A stretch of DNA of 64,000 nt, from contig CAVRCF010000003.1 in assembly GCA_963719505.1 (NCBI GenBank), forward strand, positions 288,001 to 352,000, read 5' to 3'. The DNA is from Halobacteriovoraceae bacterium. Its GTDB lineage: Bacteria > Bdellovibrionota > Bacteriovoracia > Bacteriovoracales > Bacteriovoracaceae. This document shows, piece by piece, positions 55,670 to 63,664 of this stretch (the stretch's first letter is position 1; every line of letters starts with the position of its first letter). Under the pieces are notes generated by a model. The model was not told the DNA's origin, searched no databases, and saw only the letters and a program-made list of their open reading frames with translations. The translations under genes and the position numbers were made by a program.

Positions 55670-56456
55670 TGCCTTACTTCTTATCACCAGAAATTCACGA
55701 AAATTCAGAGGGCTTTTGGTTTGAAGGTCCCAGCTTCCAAAAGGAAAATATCTATAAGATTGAAAAAGATAAGCTTCCCCCAATTAATTACGATAAATTG
55801 ATTTTAAGAAAGTCACAGTCTTACTGATCAGATTGAGAGGTTCCAAGCATGTAGACAATGGTGGGAAGACAGTCGATGAATACTTTAAAGGCAATTGTCT
55901 TTTTGGAAAGTGTACCGTTGTTTAAGGCTGTTGGGTGATAAAATTTCGGAAAAGATGGAACGAAACCACGTATCACTGGGAAGTTTCACTTGCTAATTAA
56001 AGGAAGCTTTAAATGAAGTTATTCCAAAAAAGCTTCTATTAACTGTCGATAATTACTCTCCGGGCTGAAAAATGGATATCACGATCCTAACTTGACGTCC
56101 TTACTTTTATCTCAAGAAGCTGCTGACTGGTTGATATTTTCAGATGAGTTTAATCTCTATGGTACGAGTTGGAAAAGCTCAGATTTTAAGCAGACCAGGA
56201 AAATAGGGAGAGACCAATTCATGAAAACTCTTTTTAAGAAGGCTGTCATTCTTGAGTGCCTGGACTTACAGAAGAGTCCCAAGTGGTGATAGTAATCTTT
56301 TGGTAGTTTCAGGCTCCGATGTAGGCTTAAGGGAGTCAAAGCGAGTTCGGCCTACTTTAGTCAAAGCGATGCTTAGTTAATACTAAAGAGAGAGCTGCAT
56401 TGGCTTTGAAGCGTTTCTACATACGCATCAACCAACCAAACCACTCAACAATGTAA
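55669..56456 (+). CDS. Hypothetical protein of about 260 aa broken by several apparent indels
   Basis: ATG overlaps the upstream TAA; protein-like segments (SLTDQIERFQACRQWWED, LKEALNEVIPKKLL, SQEAADWLIFSDEF) in shifting frames; end approximate. Confidence 0.45.
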
Positions 56457-57385: not shown

Positions 57386-59113
57386 TTGAAGTTCTTAATT
57401 CTTTTGTTTCCAATCTGCCTTATGGCACAAACACTCGATCCTATTATCGTGACAAGTAAAAGTGGCCTTCGAAAGTCTCAAATGACGACGAGTCCAGATG
57501 TCATCTCTGAAGAAAAGATTAATCAAAGTGTCTCTAGTGATCTTATCGATGTTCTTCGATCAGAGCCTGCTTTAAATATTACTCAAACTGGAGGCCCTGG
57601 ATCTAGTTATAATATCTCTATTAGAGGGGCTGAGTCTCGTCATACCTTAGTTCTTATTGACGGCATAAGGGTGAATGATCCAAGTACCATTGGAGGCTCT
57701 TTTAATATGCCAGCTCTTTCAACACTGGATATTGAAAAAATTGAAATACTAAAAGGTCCTCAAAGTCTTCTTTATGGAAGTGATGCCATTGGGGGAGTGA
57801 TTAATATTGTGACAAAAAAAGGTGAAGACGGAGGAGATGTCTCTTACCAGCAAGGCGCAACTGAGGAGCTCTCAAGTAGTCTCACAGTCTTTGGTCACAC
57901 CAATGTTTTTTATATAAACACATTTTATAATGAATCCGATCCCATATCAGCTTTTGCCAATGGCAGCGAAAAAGATACCGCGATTAATAGGGGCGTCACA
58001 CTTAACTACGCTCAAGCTTTTGATCTGTTTGAAATGGAATGGCAATATAAAGCAATAAATTCTTATAATGAGTTCGATGATTTTTTGGCCGACTCAAGTG
58101 ATAACTTTTCTAAAAATCTCAATCAAATATTTTATCAAAAAATGAAATTTAAAGACTTTAAACACTCGATTAGTCATCAAAAGACAGACCGTTTTTCAAA
58201 ATTTAGTAATACCTCTTCTTCAAATTACCAAGGGACGAGAACATTGAATGAGGTGAACTATAATACCTCTCATCTTCTTATGGGGCTAACTCATGAGTAT
58301 CTCACTTATGAGCAATCTAAACTTGATGAACTCAAAGTAAACCAGTACGCCGCTTTTTTAAATTACTCTAATTCTTTTGAAGATCTTTTTTATAGTGCTG
58401 GGGGGAGAGCGGACTACCATGAGGAATTTAAAAATTACAATACCTACAGTTTGGGCTTTGGGAAAAACCTGTCAGAAAGAAGGCAGATAAAGATAAACTA
58501 CTCAACTGGTTTCAAAAGCCCCACACTTTATCAGCTTTATACAAATGAGCCTGGTTCTTCGACTCCAACTTTCGGTAATGAAGATCTCGACCCAGAGACG
58601 AGTAAAACAGTTGAAGTCTCAATTTTAAAAAGTAACCCTCTGTCGGGATGGAGTGTCTCTTTTTATGATACCCATATCGATGACTTTATCATCTATGATA
58701 ATAATACCTATATTAATGAGAGTTCTCTTCGAACGTATGGAGTGGATATTGGCTTCAATCAAAAAATCGATTCATTTAGTTTAAATGAGTCAGTCTCTTT
58801 AAATAGATCAATCGATTCATCTAAGAAGTACTCTTTGAGAAAGCCCCAGGCGAAAGCAAATTTAACAGTCAACTACCAAATAAGTGATAAGAGTCTTATC
58901 AGTGTTGATAGCACTTGGGTTTCGGCCCAATATGATTTTAATAATGCTCTGGTTGAGGCCTACGACATTACAAATATTATTCATCATTATAAAAATGGTC
59001 GTATGAGTTTTAAAAATGGTGTGCGAAATGTTTTTGACCGTGAGTATGAAGAGTTAAAGGGCTATGGAACACTAGGGCTTAATATTTATACTAAGATTGA
59101 ATACAATTACTGA
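57386..59113 (+). CDS. btuB: TonB-dependent cobalamin receptor
   Basis: TonB box-like IIVT, plug IRGAESRHTLVLIDG, IEILKGPQSLLYGSDAIGGVINIVT; cobalamin riboswitch upstream; TTG start after GGAGG. Confidence 0.85.
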   Translation: MKFLILLFPICLMAQTLDPIIVTSKSGLRKSQMTTSPDVISEEKINQSVSSDLIDVLRSEPALNITQTGGPGSSYNISIRGAESRHTLVLIDGIRVNDPSTIGGSFNMPALSTLDIEKIEILKGPQSLLYGSDAIGGVINIVTKKGEDGGDVSYQQGATEELSSSLTVFGHTNVFYINTFYNESDPISAFANGSEKDTAINRGVTLNYAQAFDLFEMEWQYKAINSYNEFDDFLADSSDNFSKNLNQIFYQKMKFKDFKHSISHQKTDRFSKFSNTSSSNYQGTRTLNEVNYNTSHLLMGLTHEYLTYEQSKLDELKVNQYAAFLNYSNSFEDLFYSAGGRADYHEEFKNYNTYSLGFGKNLSERRQIKINYSTGFKSPTLYQLYTNEPGSSTPTFGNEDLDPETSKTVEVSILKSNPLSGWSVSFYDTHIDDFIIYDNNTYINESSLRTYGVDIGFNQKIDSFSLNESVSLNRSIDSSKKYSLRKPQAKANLTVNYQISDKSLISVDSTWVSAQYDFNNALVEAYDITNIIHHYKNGRMSFKNGVRNVFDREYEELKGYGTLGLNIYTKIEYNY

Positions 59114-59409
59114 AGCTTTGTGGGATCTCCGGCGTCCACATAAGTTGTGCAGCAAGAGTCCGTTTTTTCTGCACCCTCATGGTCGTGGACTTCTTCATAA
59201 ACACTATGCTTAAAGGCATCATCTTCATCTTTATTTAGGCCTAACGCTTCAGAAAGAGTATCGACAACATTTGGGCTTATAACGTAGACATCAATACCCA
59301 TCTCATCCATTTTCCCAGCATACTGATAGGCTTCAGCTTCATCTTTGAGATCACATTCAAATAATACTTCGTCTGAATCTTTGCTTTTGACTTGAACTTT
59401 TTTTGCCAT
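59107..59409 (-). CDS. Small acidic hypothetical protein with C-terminal HDHE...CC motif
   Basis: 100 aa from ATG 59409. Confidence 0.65.
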   Translation of the reverse strand: MAKKVQVKSKDSDEVLFECDLKDEAEAYQYAGKMDEMGIDVYVISPNVVDTLSEALGLNKDEDDAFKHSVYEEVHDHEGAEKTDSCCTTYVDAGDPTKLQ

Positions 59410-59473
59410 AATTGTACTGTCCGTAAGTTGTATGAGTTGCTGTAAGCATACTATAGAGTCGGGAGTGAAGCGA

Positions 59474-59797
59474 ATGCAAATTATTTTTATCAATGAGTCC
59501 AAGTTTGTCTGTGATTTTGTTGAGTCTCTTTGTAAATTTAATGATTTAGCTTGTTTTAGTTTAAATGACAGCAGTGATTTTACTTATCTAATCGATGATT
59601 TAAAGCCCGCGTTAGTTATCGTTGATAAAAATGCCTACGTAGGGGATGAGGATCGCTTTTGGAGTGGCATAAGTGGCGCGGCTCATCAAACAAAAACAAT
59701 GATTATTGGAATGGAGTCAGAAAAATTTGATTTTTCAAATCCACAGGCCATTGTTGCAGAAACTTTTGCCAATGATATTAAATCTAAATTAAAATAA
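59474..59797 (+). CDS. Stand-alone atypical response regulator receiver domain
   Basis: beta/alpha pattern IIFINES...KPALVIVD; GGGAG RBS; conserved Lys not evident. Confidence 0.55.
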   Translation: MQIIFINESKFVCDFVESLCKFNDLACFSLNDSSDFTYLIDDLKPALVIVDKNAYVGDEDRFWSGISGAAHQTKTMIIGMESEKFDFSNPQAIVAETFANDIKSKLK

Positions 59798-59874
59798 ATC
59801 TATGAATAAAGATAAGCTATTTGTTATTTTTGGATTATGCCTAACCGTTATTGTTTTTGGTGTAACAATCTATT

Positions 59875-60261
59875 TTAGAAGCGGTGTGTTTCGATAGTTT
59901 CTTTACTTTTATTTGACCAATTTGCAGGACCAATAAAAAAGCAAGTAAGTTTTGGATCTTGTGCCGTAATGATAGAGTTAACAAGCTCTTGATAATGTGT
60001 GTTAATCCACTGAGCAGCAAATTGACTTTCAGTTTGAACAATAAGATTTTTATTTTTAAGAACAATCGGCTTTATATTGGCAAACCACTGAGTATGCACT
60101 TCAGGGCCTAAAATCGCCAAAATCATCTCACTTGTCACAGACCAAGTATTTCTCGCCTTGATAACAGGATTATCATAGGACTCGTTTAAAAGATCTTGCA
60201 ACTTTGAGTGAAGATTCTTTTTGAGACTTTTTGTGTATGCACGTGTTGTGTTACTTTTCAT
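59875..60261 (-). CDS. Stand-alone DnaA N-terminal (domain I) protein
   Basis: TWSVTSEMILAILGPEVHTQWFANIKP...LIVQTESQFAAQWINTHYQELV matches the DnaA_N pattern; no AAA+ domain. Confidence 0.7.
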   Translation of the reverse strand: MKSNTTRAYTKSLKKNLHSKLQDLLNESYDNPVIKARNTWSVTSEMILAILGPEVHTQWFANIKPIVLKNKNLIVQTESQFAAQWINTHYQELVNSIITAQDPKLTCFFIGPANWSNKSKETIETHRF

Positions 60262-60288
60262 TTATCAATGCCTTTTTTGAAGATGCAG

Positions 60289-60317
60289 AGACTACCGCTT
60301 CAAAGGGGTTTTGACAA
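60289..60317 (-). promoter_or_regulatory. Sigma70-type promoter for the DnaA_N gene
   Basis: Minus strand TTGTCA-N17-TAGTCT in the 60-bp gap after hflX. Confidence 0.5.
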
Positions 60318-60321
60318 TGGA

Positions 60322-61629
60322 TTATTTTATCACTTGATCAGGTGCAAGAATATATTCGTGTAAACCTAACTGATTAAAAATAAACTCAGGAACTCTTATT
60401 CTATAGAAGGTGCCTGTCTCATGGTGCTCTTGATTGATGATGTTTGAGTTGGCAATAACTTTTGAATGAGCATCCCCTTTATCATAGGGGATGAACAGAT
60501 CGTGGTGATCTTGTTTATCTAAAAAGTAGTTAATAATATATTCTCTTAGATCAAGCATATCTTGATCATCGAGTGTGCTGACAAGAAATGAAGCCTTAAA
60601 ATTTCTCATGACAATCTTTGGCAAGAAAGGATCTTGAATTTTATCTTTTTTTGTAAAGACCACAATTTGATCTTTTTGCTCGATATTTAATTCCCCAAGA
60701 ACTTCTTGTGTTACTTCAAGATGCTTTTTGTAATTAGGGTCTGATAGATCACAGACAATAATAAGAAGCTCCGCTTCTAAAGCCGAATCAAGAGTGGTTT
60801 TAAAACCGGCAACAAGAGTATTGGGTAAATTTTGAATAAATCCAACCGTGTCGATGAGGATCATTGGTGGCTTTGAATCAGGGTTAAGAGTCCTAAAGGT
60901 TGAATCGAGAGTCGCAAATAACTTATCTTCAGCGAGCACATCAACTTTACAAAGCTTATTCATCAGACTTGATTTACCGGCATTGGTATAGCCGATAAGA
61001 GCGGCTGTGACGGCTTTATTTTGTCTTTTCTTACGTTGTTGAGCTCTTGAGACGGCGATGTCTTTAAGCTGCTTTTTCATAAACTCAATTTTTTCTCGAA
61101 TGATACGACGGTCAAGCTCAAGCTGCTGCTCTCCCTCTCCTTTCATACCAATACCACCTTTTTGCTTTGAGAAGTGATTCCACAAAGACTGAAGCCTTGG
61201 AAGCATATACTGGAGTCTAGAGATTTCAACTTGAATCCTGGCCTCACTGGTTCTCGCGTGATGGGCAAAGATCTCAAGGATAACCATAGATCGATCGATA
61301 ACATCAAGATTGGTAAGCTTTTTAATATTTCTAATTTGACTGGCCGTAAGTTCAAAGTCGAAAACAAGAATTTCACTTCCTTCTTTTTTCGCTTCTTCAG
61401 AAATCTCTATAAGCTTTCCACTTCCAAGCATGGTTGCAGACTCTAGCGAGTTTTTATTTTGAACATACTGGTTTCCAGCTTCAACGCCTAATGTTCGAAG
61501 AAGTTCTTTTAACTCTATCAGGGAGGCGTTTGTTTTTTGAACGGTCTCATATCCTTCAAAACTATCGCATACAATACTCACCATTGAGGCTTTCTTGGAG
61601 AGCTCAACTTTATAGTCATCAAAATTCAT
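60322..61629 (-). CDS. hflX: GTPase HflX
   Basis: ILEIFAHHART.EARIQVE, GYTNAGKSSL, DKLFATLD, DTVGFI. Confidence 0.96.
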   Translation of the reverse strand: MNFDDYKVELSKKASMVSIVCDSFEGYETVQKTNASLIELKELLRTLGVEAGNQYVQNKNSLESATMLGSGKLIEISEEAKKEGSEILVFDFELTASQIRNIKKLTNLDVIDRSMVILEIFAHHARTSEARIQVEISRLQYMLPRLQSLWNHFSKQKGGIGMKGEGEQQLELDRRIIREKIEFMKKQLKDIAVSRAQQRKKRQNKAVTAALIGYTNAGKSSLMNKLCKVDVLAEDKLFATLDSTFRTLNPDSKPPMILIDTVGFIQNLPNTLVAGFKTTLDSALEAELLIIVCDLSDPNYKKHLEVTQEVLGELNIEQKDQIVVFTKKDKIQDPFLPKIVMRNFKASFLVSTLDDQDMLDLREYIINYFLDKQDHHDLFIPYDKGDAHSKVIANSNIINQEHHETGTFYRIRVPEFIFNQLGLHEYILAPDQVIK

Positions 61630-62465
61630 ATCATTACCTCGACATTGTCTAGTAGGCGAACCGTTCCCAATTGCAAATTTCCAAGGATAACAAAATTTGT
61701 ATCTTCGACAACTGCTGGTGTAAAGGTTTCGGCGTTTCTAATCTCAAGATAGTTAAACCTTGAATCTTTTAATTTTTCTTTGATAAAACCTCGAGCAATT
61801 TCCAGTCCTTGTGTTTGAAGGATGAGAAGAATATTGAGAAGAGCTTGTGAGAGATCTAAGCTTTCAATTCTTTGGATATCGTTAAGGTGAATATTTCTAC
61901 TGCTCATAGCGAGTCCATCTTCTTCTCGAATGATGGGCATACCAATGATTTGTATGGGGTGATCTTTTTGTTTAACCAGCTCTTTTACCACGAGAAATTG
62001 TTGATAGTCTTTTTTTCCAAAATATGCTTTTTGAGGCTTAATCAGATTAAAAAGTCGATGAACAACCGTTGCCACTCCATCGAAGTGACCAGGGCGAGTT
62101 TCCCCCTCACTAATGGAGCGCAAATGATCTATTGTCACGTAGTCATTAAAGTCATCGGGGTAGATTACTTTTTCATTTTCAGGGATAAAAAAGTGAATTT
62201 CTTTTTTGGGATACCTTTTTAAAAGGGAGTTTGCTCTTGAAATATCTTCTTCAATCGTTCTTGGATACTCTTGTAAATCTTTTATTTCACCAAACTGCTT
62301 GGGGTTGACAAAAATTGAAATGATTGTCGTCTCATTTTCTTTGAGAGACTCTTCAATTAAAGAGAGGTGACCATTATGCAGATTCCCCATCGTTGGAACA
62401 AAGCCCAAAGTTTTATTATTTTGATCATGAAAAGTTTTAATTTGCTCTAGGGTTGCAAGAATCAT
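61626..62465 (-). CDS. panC: Pantoate--beta-alanine ligase
   Basis: GFVPTMGNLHNGH, SIFVNPKQF, RPGHFDGV, FGKKDYQQ, GLAMSSRN, RLLDN. Confidence 0.96.
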   Translation of the reverse strand: MILATLEQIKTFHDQNNKTLGFVPTMGNLHNGHLSLIEESLKENETTIISIFVNPKQFGEIKDLQEYPRTIEEDISRANSLLKRYPKKEIHFFIPENEKVIYPDDFNDYVTIDHLRSISEGETRPGHFDGVATVVHRLFNLIKPQKAYFGKKDYQQFLVVKELVKQKDHPIQIIGMPIIREEDGLAMSSRNIHLNDIQRIESLDLSQALLNILLILQTQGLEIARGFIKEKLKDSRFNYLEIRNAETFTPAVVEDTNFVILGNLQLGTVRLLDNVEVMI

Positions 62466-63664
62466 AAAAGCTCGAGAATCTTATGGGCAAGCTGACTTTT
62501 AGAAAGAGCGTGGCTTTCAATCACTTTTGCATTTTTAATAAAGTAGTATTCATTTTCATCGGCACCAAATCCTTTTTGTGCACTCGTCGCGCCGCTACTG
62601 ACAACATTTCCCACAAGAAGATCAACGGGCTTTTTGTTCCATTTCTTTATAAAGACGCTCTCATCACTGCTTGATTCAGCTGCAAAGCCGACAACTTTTT
62701 GTTTCTTTCTCGTCTTTAAGACTGAAGCCAAGACATCGACGGCTTGATGGAACTGAAGAGAATTGTTCATCTGATCTTTTTTAAGTTTTGACTGGGAGAG
62801 ATCAAACTCAATATCACTCATCGCCGCTGTTGAGATGTAAAGGTCACAGCGGTAAAAGTGCTGAGTCACAAGATCGTGCATTTTTGCTGTTGTCGCTGCT
62901 TCATAAATTTCTATATTTGGTAGATCTTTTAGATAATCAATTTGGTGAGTGCAATTAAAGCCTTTGATTAAAATCACTTTATAACCAAGCCCTAGGTATT
63001 CTTTGGCAAACTGGTGGCCTGTTAGACCTGTTGAGGCATTAGTAATGAAGCGCACGGGATCTAGTGCACTCATCGTCGCTCCAGTTGTGATAAGAATTGT
63101 TTTATTTTGGGGCTCAAGATTAATGATGGGTGTGACGTCGCAGATGAGTTCTACATCTGAGAGTTTTCCCGCTCCAATATCCCCACAAGCTAATTCACCA
63201 GACTTTGTTGGATGGATAAAGGTATGACTTAAGTCTCCAAGAGTTTTTAAGTTTTTTTGCGTGATCGGATGGGTGAGCATATTCGTATTCATCGCTGGAA
63301 AAATAATACAGGTCTTATCTCCAAGGGCTAAAAAAACACTTGAGAGAAGATCGTCACAAAATCCACCAGCAAGCTTGGCCAAAGTATTGGCACTGGCCGG
63401 AGCGATTAAGAGTCGATCACACCATTTGACCAGATCGATATGCAAAACTTTAGTATCACTTTCGTATTGATCGAGATTAAAATCATCTCCTGCTGTGTAA
63501 ACGTTTTTAGCACCAAGATAGTGAAAGGCTTTTGGGTTTAAAAATTCAGTGGCTCCACGGGAGACGATGACGCGCACTTCATGACCAGACTTTGAAAGTC
63601 CACGACAAATATCGAGCGCTTTATAAGCGGAAATTGAACCAGTGACGGCCAAAAGAATTTTCAT
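62462..63664 (-). CDS. coaBC: Phosphopantothenoylcysteine decarboxylase/synthetase
   Basis: TGSISAYK, APASAN, PAMN, LACGDIGAGK, DPVRFITNASTG, GFAAE. Confidence 0.95.
   Translation of the reverse strand: MKILLAVTGSISAYKALDICRGLSKSGHEVRVIVSRGATEFLNPKAFHYLGAKNVYTAGDDFNLDQYESDTKVLHIDLVKWCDRLLIAPASANTLAKLAGGFCDDLLSSVFLALGDKTCIIFPAMNTNMLTHPITQKNLKTLGDLSHTFIHPTKSGELACGDIGAGKLSDVELICDVTPIINLEPQNKTILITTGATMSALDPVRFITNASTGLTGHQFAKEYLGLGYKVILIKGFNCTHQIDYLKDLPNIEIYEAATTAKMHDLVTQHFYRCDLYISTAAMSDIEFDLSQSKLKKDQMNNSLQFHQAVDVLASVLKTRKKQKVVGFAAESSSDESVFIKKWNKKPVDLLVGNVVSSGATSAQKGFGADENEYYFIKNAKVIESHALSKSQLAHKILELL

What the first reader, a model, noticed from the sequence alone, without database searches (positions are those of the whole stretch)
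59875..60317. Stand-alone DnaA domain I protein with its own promoter: possible replication-initiation modulator
Seen: a 128-aa ORF with the W..QWF..L....QF...WI...Y pattern, no AAA+ or DNA-binding domain, an intact stop in a clean (indel-free) region, and its own TTGTCA-N17-TAGTCT promoter behind hflX. Known: DnaA domain I is the docking site for DnaB, DiaA/HobA and SirA, and DciA has a related fold. Inference: this could be a decoy or adaptor that gates initiation in a predator which does not replicate in attack phase and re-initiates repeatedly in the prey.
Basis: partly seen in the sequence, partly recalled or inferred. Interest (0 to 1): 0.7.

Follow-up and report, generated by a model that had tools for sequence, protein, structure and literature searches.

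The report
Stand-alone DnaA domain I gene beside hflX
A small, well-conserved gene in a group of uncultured Bacteriovorax-like bacteria encodes only the first, protein-docking domain of the replication initiator DnaA; it is probably a helper or brake for starting DNA replication, but its role is untested.

Summary
Window 59875-60261 (-) is a real 128-aa gene. Residues 31-112 are a DnaA domain I: Pfam DnaA_N scores 40.2 bits against a cut-off of 24.6, and the confident model matches B. subtilis DnaA domain I at 1.3 Å. There is no AAA+ or DNA-binding part.

- **Family:** about 55 clusters, all short. It was found only in part of one family (Bacteriovoracaceae-like, 17 of 67 genomes sampled) and its sister family (1 of 1). 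None was found in 232 other genomes of the phylum.
- **Position:** it lies directly downstream of hflX in all 24 related genomes examined.
- **Selection:** purifying (pN 0.135, pS 0.676).
- **Not DciA:** the genome has its own DciA and a full DnaA with an intact domain I fold.
- **Conserved residues:** it keeps the E. coli Trp6, Trp25, Phe46 and Trp50 equivalents and adds a conserved N-terminal extension (DNPVxKA) and basic tails.
- **Promoter:** the proposed sequence is present and partly conserved, but weak and unproven.

The function is inferred. Most likely it is a domain I mimic that competes for, or bridges, domain I partners at initiation. A ribosome or HflX-linked role is not excluded. 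The one co-fold gave no answer, no RNA data were found, and no paper on such proteins was found.

The parts
59875..60261 (-). Gene for the 128-aa stand-alone DnaA domain I protein
   Evidence: ORF. Pfam DnaA_N 40.2 bits. 54 short homologues. Purifying selection: pN 0.135 vs pS 0.676 against the nearest relative with DNA.
59926..60171 (-). Residues 31-112: domain I core with helix-helix-strand-strand-helix-helix-strand order
   Evidence: AlphaFold2 model with 10-residue block pLDDT means of 89-95 over residues 31-110. Elements H32-51, H53-60, E64-69, E72-76, H80-89, H91-101, E106-110. Foldseek best hits 4tps_D/B (B. subtilis DnaA domain I): E 3.7e-6, TM 0.82-0.84 by target, rmsd 1.3 Å over 76 columns.
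60172..60261 (-). Residues 1-30: family-specific basic N-terminal extension. It is a predicted helix of low confidence that leads into the conserved DNPVxKA cap of helix 1
   Evidence: Alignment A1: D30 86%, N31 92%, P32 100%, V33 89%, K35 89%, A36 100%. pLDDT 55-61 for residues 1-30. Median net charge of the N-terminal part is +2. Canonical DnaA profiles begin at the Trp.
60289..60317 (-). Candidate sigma-70-type promoter TTGTCA-N17-TAGTCT, starting 4 nt after the hflX stop
   Evidence: Sequence read. Not called by the consensus scan. Partly conserved in position in relatives. Not significant per locus.
60322..61629 (-). hflX (ribosome-associated GTPase), the invariant upstream neighbour on the same strand
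   Evidence: Pfam GTP-bdg_N, GTP-bdg_M and MMR_HSR1. Directly upstream in all 27 related loci examined, which represent 24 distinct genomes.
61626..63664 (-). Two upstream same-strand ORFs, each overlapping the next gene by 4 nt; they form one gene string with hflX and the ORF. The names panC and coaBC are my own reading of their sequences, from no call
   Evidence: ORF coordinates. The same two ORFs-then-hflX string is kept in relatives that lack the small gene. No intrinsic terminator was predicted in 59400-60700.

Best explanation
The gene encodes a trans-acting copy of DnaA domain I, the protein-docking module of the replication initiator. It has an extra N-terminal helix and basic tails. 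It is expressed from the hflX gene string and possibly also from its own weak promoter.

Shown: it is a real, selected, clade-restricted gene family with the domain I fold. Its most conserved positions lie on the two surfaces used by domain I in model bacteria. One is helix 1 plus the strand1-strand2 turn, which is the E. coli Trp6 self-association patch. The other is helices 2 and 3, which carry the E. coli Trp25/Phe46/Trp50 patch that binds DnaB and DiaA in E. coli and is named in abstracts as the site of the B. subtilis SirA and DnaD contacts.

Inferred: it works by mimicry. It would occupy, or bridge, the partner that normally docks on DnaA's own domain I. The likeliest partner is the replicative helicase or an unknown lineage-specific regulator. 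In that way it would tune helicase loading or initiation frequency.

The lineage's DnaA has Thr at the Trp6 position while the small protein keeps Trp. I therefore think self-pairing of the small protein, or competition for the Phe46-patch ligand, is more likely than capping of DnaA's helix 1. Whether it inhibits (decoy) or promotes (adaptor) cannot be told from sequence.

The confidence of 0.45 is for a replication-initiation role by domain I-type contacts. Confidence that it is a genuine stand-alone domain I family is about 0.95.
For: - **Domain identity:** Pfam DnaA_N 40.2 bits against a cut-off of 24.6. It scores higher (41.9 bits) than the genome's own DnaA domain I (28.7 bits) in the whole-genome scan. 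The fold model and Foldseek agree.
- **Residue map:** from the profile-to-PDB alignment with 2e0g and 4tps, W40 = Eco Trp6, W59 = Trp25, S79 = Asn44, F81 = Phe46, W85 = Trp50. W40, W59 and W85 are invariant and F81 is 94% conserved in 38 sequences. The roles of these residues come from passages of the review PMC5448010.
- **Conserved polar positions:** many polar positions are at least 84% conserved (N31, K35, S44, E54, H56, Q58, N70, Q76, T77, N87, T88, H89, Q91, Q101, D102). This argues for a specific binding partner rather than fold maintenance alone.
- **Real and selected:** pN 0.135 vs pS 0.676. There are 27 clusters at E<=1e-30 and 58 at E<=1e-10 among 1.84 billion representatives.
- **Old and retained:** it is present in a 0.9-Mb genome of the sister family. 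On an HflX tree, carriers are paraphyletic around one clade of 5 non-carriers, which fits an ancestral gene lost later.
- **Charge:** the small protein is basic (median pI 9.4), while the lineage's DnaA domain I is acidic (pI 4.7-5.8).
- **Shared patch:** the Phe46 equivalent is invariant in 15 of 15 DnaAs of this family as well, so both proteins could present the same docking patch.
- **Precedent:** Hda shows that a protein acting directly on DnaA regulates initiation (abstract of PMC5397184 in the listing). That Hda is itself a truncated DnaA paralogue is recalled.
Against: - No direct evidence of any interaction, expression pattern or phenotype exists.
- No DnaA box (TTATCCACA, up to 1 mismatch) lies near the gene. 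There are 14 in the window against 16.3 expected, and the nearest is at 56044.
- The gene is far from the lineage's own domain I (hhalign E 0.0018, probability 14.6%, 16% identity). The lineage's DnaA lacks the Trp6 equivalent, so a Trp-patch heterodimer with DnaA is doubtful.
- About three quarters of the genera sampled in the same family do without the gene: it was seen in 17 of 70 genomes. Their DnaA domain I scores span a similar range, so it is not a general requirement of this kind of DnaA.
- The only invariant genomic link is to hflX, a ribosome factor, not to any replication gene.
Confidence: 0.45

Rival explanations
1. It is a ribosome- or HflX-linked factor. The small basic protein works with HflX on the large ribosomal subunit, for example by binding ribosomal protein L2 or rRNA. 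It has little to do with DnaA, or it only relays translation status to replication.
For: hflX lies directly upstream on the same strand in all 27 loci examined, which represent 24 distinct genomes down to 27-40% protein identity. No terminator was predicted between the two genes. The protein is basic, with basic tails. The domain I fold is KH-like, and E. coli ribosomal protein L2 binds the DnaA N-terminus (passages of PMC5448010). There are weak Foldseek matches to RbfA and to ribosome-assembly intermediates (E 0.33-0.38).
Against: The two ORFs upstream of hflX are just as conserved, including in relatives without the small gene, so the adjacency may be inherited gene order rather than functional coupling. 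The KH nucleic-acid loop GxxG is absent in 38 of 38 members (that GxxG defines KH binding is recalled). Relatives keep hflX without this gene. The best fold and sequence matches are DnaA domain I, not ribosomal KH proteins.
Confidence: 0.2
2. It is a small single-stranded-DNA or RNA-binding or nucleoid-associated protein that has merely reused the domain I scaffold, with partners unrelated to both DnaA and HflX.
For: Median pI is 9.4, with basic N- and C-terminal tails of variable length. E. coli domain I binds ssDNA weakly (passage of PMC5448010).
Against: The core is near neutral (median pI 7.3). The strongest conservation lies in the core surfaces that match protein-docking patches, not in the tails. 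No GxxG is present.
Confidence: 0.15
3. It is a DciA-type helicase operator.
For: DciA structures are the next-best Foldseek hits (7ykm E 3.3e-3; 8a3v E 1.4e-2).
Against: There is no DciA (PF05258) hit at E<=1. The genome has a separate DciA gene at 50 bits against a cut-off of 24. TM-scores to DciA are 0.37-0.52, against 0.82-0.84 (by target) for DnaA domain I.
Confidence: 0.03
4. It is a functionless remnant of a duplicated dnaA 5' end.
For: It is a domain-only gene. A tree cannot reject a common origin with the lineage's DnaA domain I (AU p 0.50).
Against: Selection is purifying. There are 10 invariant columns across 38 sequences down to 27% identity. The length is conserved and there is no adjacent AAA+ remnant. 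The gene is retained in a 0.9-Mb genome.
Confidence: 0.02

Closest known systems
DnaA domain I (Pfam DnaA_N, PF11638; structures 4TPS of B. subtilis, 2E0G of E. coli, 2WP0 of H. pylori)
   Same: HMM score above the cut-off, the same order of helices and strands, rmsd 1.3 Å to 4TPS, and the Trp6, Trp25, Phe46 and Trp50 equivalents kept.
   Different: It is not part of a DnaA: there is no linker, AAA+ or domain IV. It has a conserved 30-residue N-terminal extension, and helix 1 is lengthened by the DNPVxKA cap. It is basic rather than acidic. The column aligned with E. coli Glu21 is Val/Ile.
Other proteins that NCBI names 'DnaA N-terminal domain-containing protein' (for example 87-aa WP_066268215.1 of Heyndrickxia acidicola, and a Verrucomicrobiota MAG protein)
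   Same: The same domain-only architecture. This shows that the architecture is catalogued elsewhere.
   Different: They match only profile positions of about 35-115, at 43-56 bits, against 74-172 bits for this family. They therefore lack the extension and the family-specific residues. I found no paper on the function of any of them.
DciA (DUF721) N-terminal domain
   Same: A related KH-like fold.
   Different: No sequence match. A separate dciA gene is present.
Hda
   Same: Hda shows that a small protein acting directly on DnaA can regulate initiation (abstract in the listing). That it is a truncated DnaA paralogue, and so a domain-only precedent, is recalled.
   Different: From recall, Hda keeps the AAA+ module and works with the sliding clamp. 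This protein keeps only domain I and has no ATPase.
Regulators that bind the domain I patch (DiaA/HobA, SirA, DnaD, YfdR, ribosomal protein L2)
   Same: They act at the same interface (Phe46/Trp25 region) and control DnaA assembly or helicase loading (passages of PMC5448010).
   Different: They bind domain I. This protein is a domain I, so it would compete with DnaA for such ligands rather than cover DnaA's patch. There is no homology to them.

Membership tests
DnaA domain I (Pfam DnaA_N, PF11638) | HMM score above the curated gathering cut-off | tested here: met
   40.2 bits against 24.6, residues 38-98 on profile positions 2-63 of 65; 41.9 bits in the genome scan.
DnaA domain I (Pfam DnaA_N, PF11638) | Helix-helix-strand-strand-helix-helix-strand fold superposable on solved domain I structures | tested here: met
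   Model core with 10-residue block pLDDT means of 89-95 over residues 31-110. 4tps_D/B E 3.7e-6 and 1.6e-5, TM 0.82-0.84 by target, rmsd 1.3 Å; 2wp0, 2e0g and 2jmp also listed.
DnaA domain I (Pfam DnaA_N, PF11638) | Hallmark aromatic residues (E. coli Trp6, Trp25, Phe46, Trp50) | tested here: met
   W40, W59 and W85 invariant, F81 94% in 38 sequences; mapping. The column aligned with Glu21 is V55 and not acidic; the adjacent E54 is 84% conserved.
DnaA, the full-length initiator (TIGR00362 equivalog) | AAA+ domain III and DNA-binding domain IV in the same polypeptide, with a score above the equivalog cut-off | tested here: not met
   26.5 bits against a cut-off of 343.9, covering only profile positions 1-67 of 437. 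No Bac_DnaA hit in the ORF. The real dnaA is on another contig.
DciA (PF05258, DUF721) | HMM match to the DciA family | tested here: not met
   No hit at E<=1. A separate DciA gene scores 50 bits.
KH domain (nucleic-acid-binding) | GxxG loop between the helices (feature recalled from general knowledge) | tested here: not met
   0 of 38 family members contain GxxG.
Functional class: modulator of replication initiation | Physical contact with DnaA, DnaB or another initiation protein, or an effect on initiation | not testable with these tools
   It needs binding assays and genetics. No computed result here bears on it either way.

The most novel reading that the evidence does not exclude
This would be the first natural trans-acting 'domain I mimic' regulator of bacterial replication. 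It is a free copy of DnaA's docking domain, transcribed with the ribosome-rescue GTPase HflX. It would titrate or bridge the helicase (or another domain I ligand), so that initiation is tied to translational or stress status in a lineage of presumed predatory bacteria.
Probability: 0.2. Interest if true: 0.75.

Novelty: new variant of a known kind. Interest (0 to 1): 0.5.

Why it matters
Domain I is the hub through which very different bacteria control DnaA and load the helicase. All regulators named in the review passages I read bind to it; none was described there as a free copy of it. My searches found no paper on a stand-alone domain I protein.

A conserved, selected, stand-alone domain I with both docking surfaces intact offers a simple experimental handle. 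Expressing it and looking for what it pulls down could reveal which proteins dock on domain I in this lineage, which I believe is unstudied. It could also show whether regulation by domain mimicry exists for DnaA.

It also flags that the 'DnaA N-terminal domain-containing protein' label hides at least one coherent family with fixed synteny.

Tried and rejected
- **Co-fold:** the small protein (residues 1-118, alignment A1) was co-folded with the N-terminal 135 residues of the genome's DnaA (alignment A2). The verdict was 'no answer', score 0.00 and 0.00 against a mark of 0.32, and controls were not run. This is neither for nor against binding. Homodimer, DnaB, DciA, HflX and L2 pairings were not run, because only one job is allowed.
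- **Expression:** no RNA holder was listed.
- **DciA reading:** rejected.
- **Idea that the small protein replaces a lost or degenerate domain I of DnaA:** the lineage's DnaA N-terminus folds confidently as a domain I (residues 52-132, pLDDT 90-96). DnaA_N scores of DnaA span a similar range in carriers and non-carriers. Not supported.
- **Remnants in non-carriers:** a six-frame profile search of 5 hflX loci found nothing, best E 0.2.
- **Origin:** in the domain tree of 86 rows and 78 columns, the family is not placed inside the lineage's DnaA clade (that clade has support 100). An AU test does not reject a common clade (p 0.50), so duplication versus transfer is unresolved. Half of the family rows and half of the short rows were left out to thin that tree.
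- **Other look-ups:** DnaA boxes near the gene: none. PHROGs: only E 0.029. ESM Atlas: its own cluster only. The second hit in G025 is a spurious match in an 841-aa ORF that I read as a valyl-tRNA synthetase (my own reading, no family scan).
- **Earlier findings of this scan:** nothing relevant.
- **Supplements:** none were opened.

Full report
**1. Is it there?**

Yes. Window 59875..60261 on the minus strand is an ATG-to-TAA ORF of 128 aa. Pfam scores it as DnaA_N (PF11638) at 40.2 bits, E 2.8e-10, against a gathering cut-off of 24.6. The match covers residues 38-98 on 62 of the 65 profile positions. No AAA+ or domain IV family was reported at E<=1. NCBIfam sees only the first 67 of 437 positions of the DnaA equivalog, at 26.5 bits against a cut-off of 343.9.

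The upstream neighbour on the same strand (60322..61629) is hflX, with GTP-bdg_N, GTP-bdg_M and MMR_HSR1 domains. The gap between them is 60 nt. Downstream, only 78 nt separate the stop from a convergent 121-aa ORF. There is therefore no room for a decayed remainder of a dnaA gene.

**2. Is it a real gene?**

- The word-indexed search found 54 proteins of 78-141 aa (E 3e-73 to 2.7e-16). Of these, 53 carry PF11638 as their only precomputed Pfam domain, and 2 rows bear the NCBI name 'DnaA N-terminal domain-containing protein' from Bacteriovoracaceae and Bdellovibrionota MAGs.
- A profile of 38 members (A1) was run against 1.84 billion cluster representatives. It gave 662 hits at E<=1e-3, 58 at <=1e-10 and 27 at <=1e-30.
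- The first roughly 55 are 67-165 aa long, apart from one 815-aa protein, and most of them also align through the N-terminal extension. Below them come generic short DnaA_N proteins and a few full-length DnaAs at 43-58 bits.
- Against the nearest relative with DNA in hand (G002, 80% aa identity), pN is 0.135 and pS is 0.676. For hflX the values are 0.078 and 0.678. Synonymous sites are saturated, so only the inequality is meaningful.
- The alignment has 10 invariant and 13 nearly invariant columns, down to 27% identity.

**3. Fold**

AlphaFold2 with A1 gives a mean pLDDT of 79.1. The 10-residue block means are 89-95 over residues 31-110. The elements are helix 32-51, helix 53-60, strands 64-69 and 72-76, helices 80-89 and 91-101, and strand 106-110. 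Residues 1-30 form a low-confidence helix, with pLDDT 55-61.

Foldseek against the PDB ranks B. subtilis DnaA domain I first (4tps_D E 3.7e-6, 4tps_B E 1.6e-5; TM 0.82-0.84 by target; rmsd 1.3 Å over 76 columns). Next come DciA (7ykm 3.3e-3; 8a3v 1.4e-2), then H. pylori, E. coli and M. genitalium domain I.

The profile-to-PDB sequence search hits 4tps_B (E 3e-5), 8btg_A, 2jmp_A and 2e0g_A.

**4. Not a DciA and not a replacement for DnaA's own domain I**

- The genome has a separate DciA gene (PF05258, 50 bits).
- It also has a full dnaA on another contig (PF00308, 191 bits).
- That DnaA probably starts at an internal Met of the listed ORF, as in 14 relatives. All of them begin with a conserved FPFxHF motif, followed by a variable linker and then domain I.
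- Its N-terminal 150 residues fold with pLDDT 90-96 over residues 52-132 in the same helix and strand order, except that the last two helices are drawn as one.
- Its Pfam DnaA_N score is only 28.7 bits. It has Thr, Tyr and Met where E. coli has Trp6, Trp25 and Trp50. The Phe46 equivalent is invariant in 15 of 15.
- Across 70 other genomes of the family, DnaA's own domain I scores about 19-40 bits, or is missed, whether or not the small gene is present.

**5. Distribution**

- With profile A1 over 300 other genomes of the phylum, true family matches (121-180 bits, open frames 127-250 aa) occur in 17 of 67 genomes of the window's family and 1 of 1 of the sister family.
- In the remaining 232 genomes there are none. 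The five 27-29-bit matches (one of them in the window's family, G270) lie in 313-570-aa frames and are DnaA itself.
- A one-per-genus sample gives 17 of 70.
- These are samples, so 'not found in those searched' is the correct wording.
- Five complete or near-complete non-carriers keep the same two upstream ORFs and hflX, but show no trace of the gene. The six-frame profile search gave a best E of 0.2.
- On a quick HflX tree of 25 carriers and those 5 non-carriers, rooted on the sister-family genome, the non-carriers form one clade (support 96) nested among carriers. This fits an ancestral gene with later loss.
- That tree has limits: the five were chosen because they were the complete genomes, and it is a single-gene tree.
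- The sister-family carrier has a genome of only about 0.9 Mb.

**6. Synteny and expression signals**

- In all 27 related loci examined, which represent 24 distinct genomes, hflX lies immediately upstream on the same strand. Three further carriers seen only were not examined.
- Gaps run from an apparent overlap to about 100 nt.
- No intrinsic terminator was predicted in 59400-60700.
It was not called by the consensus scan, because the -10 matches only 3 of 6 positions.
- Its hexamers align with similar ones in 6 of 7 relatives (-35) and 7 of 7 (the TA of the -10).
- Per-locus shuffles reach the same score in 7 to 200 of 200 trials.
- My reading is that co-transcription with hflX is likely and that an additional internal promoter is possible.
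- The ORFs upstream of hflX are equally conserved. The hflX adjacency alone is therefore weak evidence of functional coupling.

**7. What the conserved residues say**

Mapping through one search gives W40 = E. coli Trp6, V55 = Glu21, W59 = Trp25, S79 = Asn44, F81 = Phe46 and W85 = Trp50.

According to passages of the review PMC5448010:
- Trp6, helix 1 and the strand1-strand2 loop form the self-association patch that DnaB loading requires.
- Glu21 and Phe46 bind DnaB.
- Glu21, Trp25, Asn44, Phe46 and Trp50 bind DiaA.
- YfdR binds in a Phe46-dependent manner.
- H. pylori domain I lacks Trp6 and does not self-associate.
- Ribosomal protein L2 binds the DnaA N-terminus and inhibits it.

In the small protein both regions are the most conserved parts:
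- Helix 1 with its family-specific cap: D30-N31-P32-V33-x-K35-A36, W40 and S44. P32, A36, W40 and S44 are spaced i, i+4, i+8 and i+12, so they lie on one helix face.
- The K69-N70 turn.
- Helices 2 and 3: E54, H56, Q58, W59, F60, F81, A82, W85, I86, N87, T88, H89, Y90 and Q91.

Many of these residues are polar. That points to a specific partner.

The protein is basic (median pI 9.4; core 7.3; basic tails), while the lineage's DnaA domain I is acidic (pI 4.7-5.8). No member has the KH GxxG loop (0 of 38).

**8. Mechanism**

Shown: this is a selected, clade-restricted, stand-alone domain I with both canonical docking surfaces conserved. It is placed in the hflX gene string.

Inferred: it acts by mimicry of DnaA's docking domain at initiation.
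- The lineage's DnaA lacks the Trp of helix 1 but shares the Phe46-type patch. I therefore favour competition for, or bridging of, a Phe46-patch ligand. The helicase DnaB, perhaps with DciA, or an unknown regulator are the candidates.
- The small protein may act as a Trp-mediated self-dimer.
- I cannot tell whether it inhibits or promotes initiation.
- I put a replication-initiation role at about 0.45, a ribosome or HflX-linked role at about 0.2, a generic nucleic-acid-binding role at about 0.15, and the DciA-like and remnant readings at 0.03 and 0.02. The remainder is unknown.

**9. Comparison with what is known**

- The fold and the Pfam family are known.
- The domain-only architecture is catalogued by name in unrelated phyla as well. 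One example is an 87-aa protein of Heyndrickxia acidicola on a 4.77-Mb contig.
- My full-text searches found no paper that describes a stand-alone domain I protein or this family. Of the papers listed, I read only passages of PMC5448010, PMC11318664 and the Fusobacterium preprint, and the abstract and outline of PMC13270200.
- This family differs from generic DnaA_N-only proteins in three ways: the conserved N-terminal extension, its much higher mutual scores, and its fixed position after hflX.
- It is distant from the lineage's own domain I (hhalign E 0.0018, 16% identity).
- The tree cannot decide between an old duplication and a transfer.

**10. The predator argument**

Abstracts listed (PMC5124646, PMC6606864) state that B. 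bacteriovorus has non-replicating attack-phase cells and replicating growth-phase cells. This gene family was not found in any of the 232 genomes of the other families of the phylum. Lifestyle for the carriers is inferred only from MAG taxonomy labels. The life-cycle rationale is therefore a motive, not evidence.

**11. Verdict**

The functional reading is plausible and testable but unproven. Interest is moderate (0.5). This is a clean, conserved example of a domain-only paralogue of the initiator's regulatory hub, with no experimental precedent that I could find.

Noticed in passing
L002:1324-1773 (own dnaA, contig C1) and loci L049-L068: DnaAs of this bacterial family begin with an invariant FPFxHF-type motif (F5, P6 and F10 invariant in 15 of 15). 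A roughly 40-residue disordered linker follows, then a domain I that has Thr, Tyr and Met at the E. coli Trp6, Trp25 and Trp50 positions. The motif looks like a short docking peptide of unknown partner. It occurs in carriers and non-carriers of the small gene alike.
   Followed up: partly
window 59432-59797 (+) and 59107-59409 (-): There are two small conserved neighbours. One is a receiver-like 121-aa ORF with no Pfam hit (a weak NCBIfam DVU0259/DivK-like match, E 0.02). The other is an acidic protein of about 100 aa that ends in a Cys-rich tail and has no family. Both recur near hflX in most carriers and also in two non-carriers (G012, G018).
   Followed up: partly
L014 / L025 (G025:C1:704763-708125): A genome of only about 0.9 Mb in the sister family keeps the hflX plus stand-alone domain I pair. 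This suggests the small gene is not dispensable baggage.
   Followed up: no
protein P0104 (815 aa, named as a partial Longimicrobium DnaA): It matches the domain I profile in three separate stretches, so it may be a DnaA with a multiplied domain I.
   Followed up: no
G270:C134:2475-2657 (L042): One genome of the family has a second DnaA-like frame of 449 aa, with a very canonical domain I (62.9 bits), on a short contig. Its ordinary family-type DnaA scores 28.2 bits. This is either a second initiator or contamination.
   Followed up: no
proteins P0116-P0203, e.g. P0209: Dozens of unrelated short proteins (about 70-200 aa) carrying only DnaA_N exist in metagenomes and in at least one complete Bacillaceae genome. 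Some may be gene fragments at contig ends. Their contexts were not examined.
   Followed up: partly
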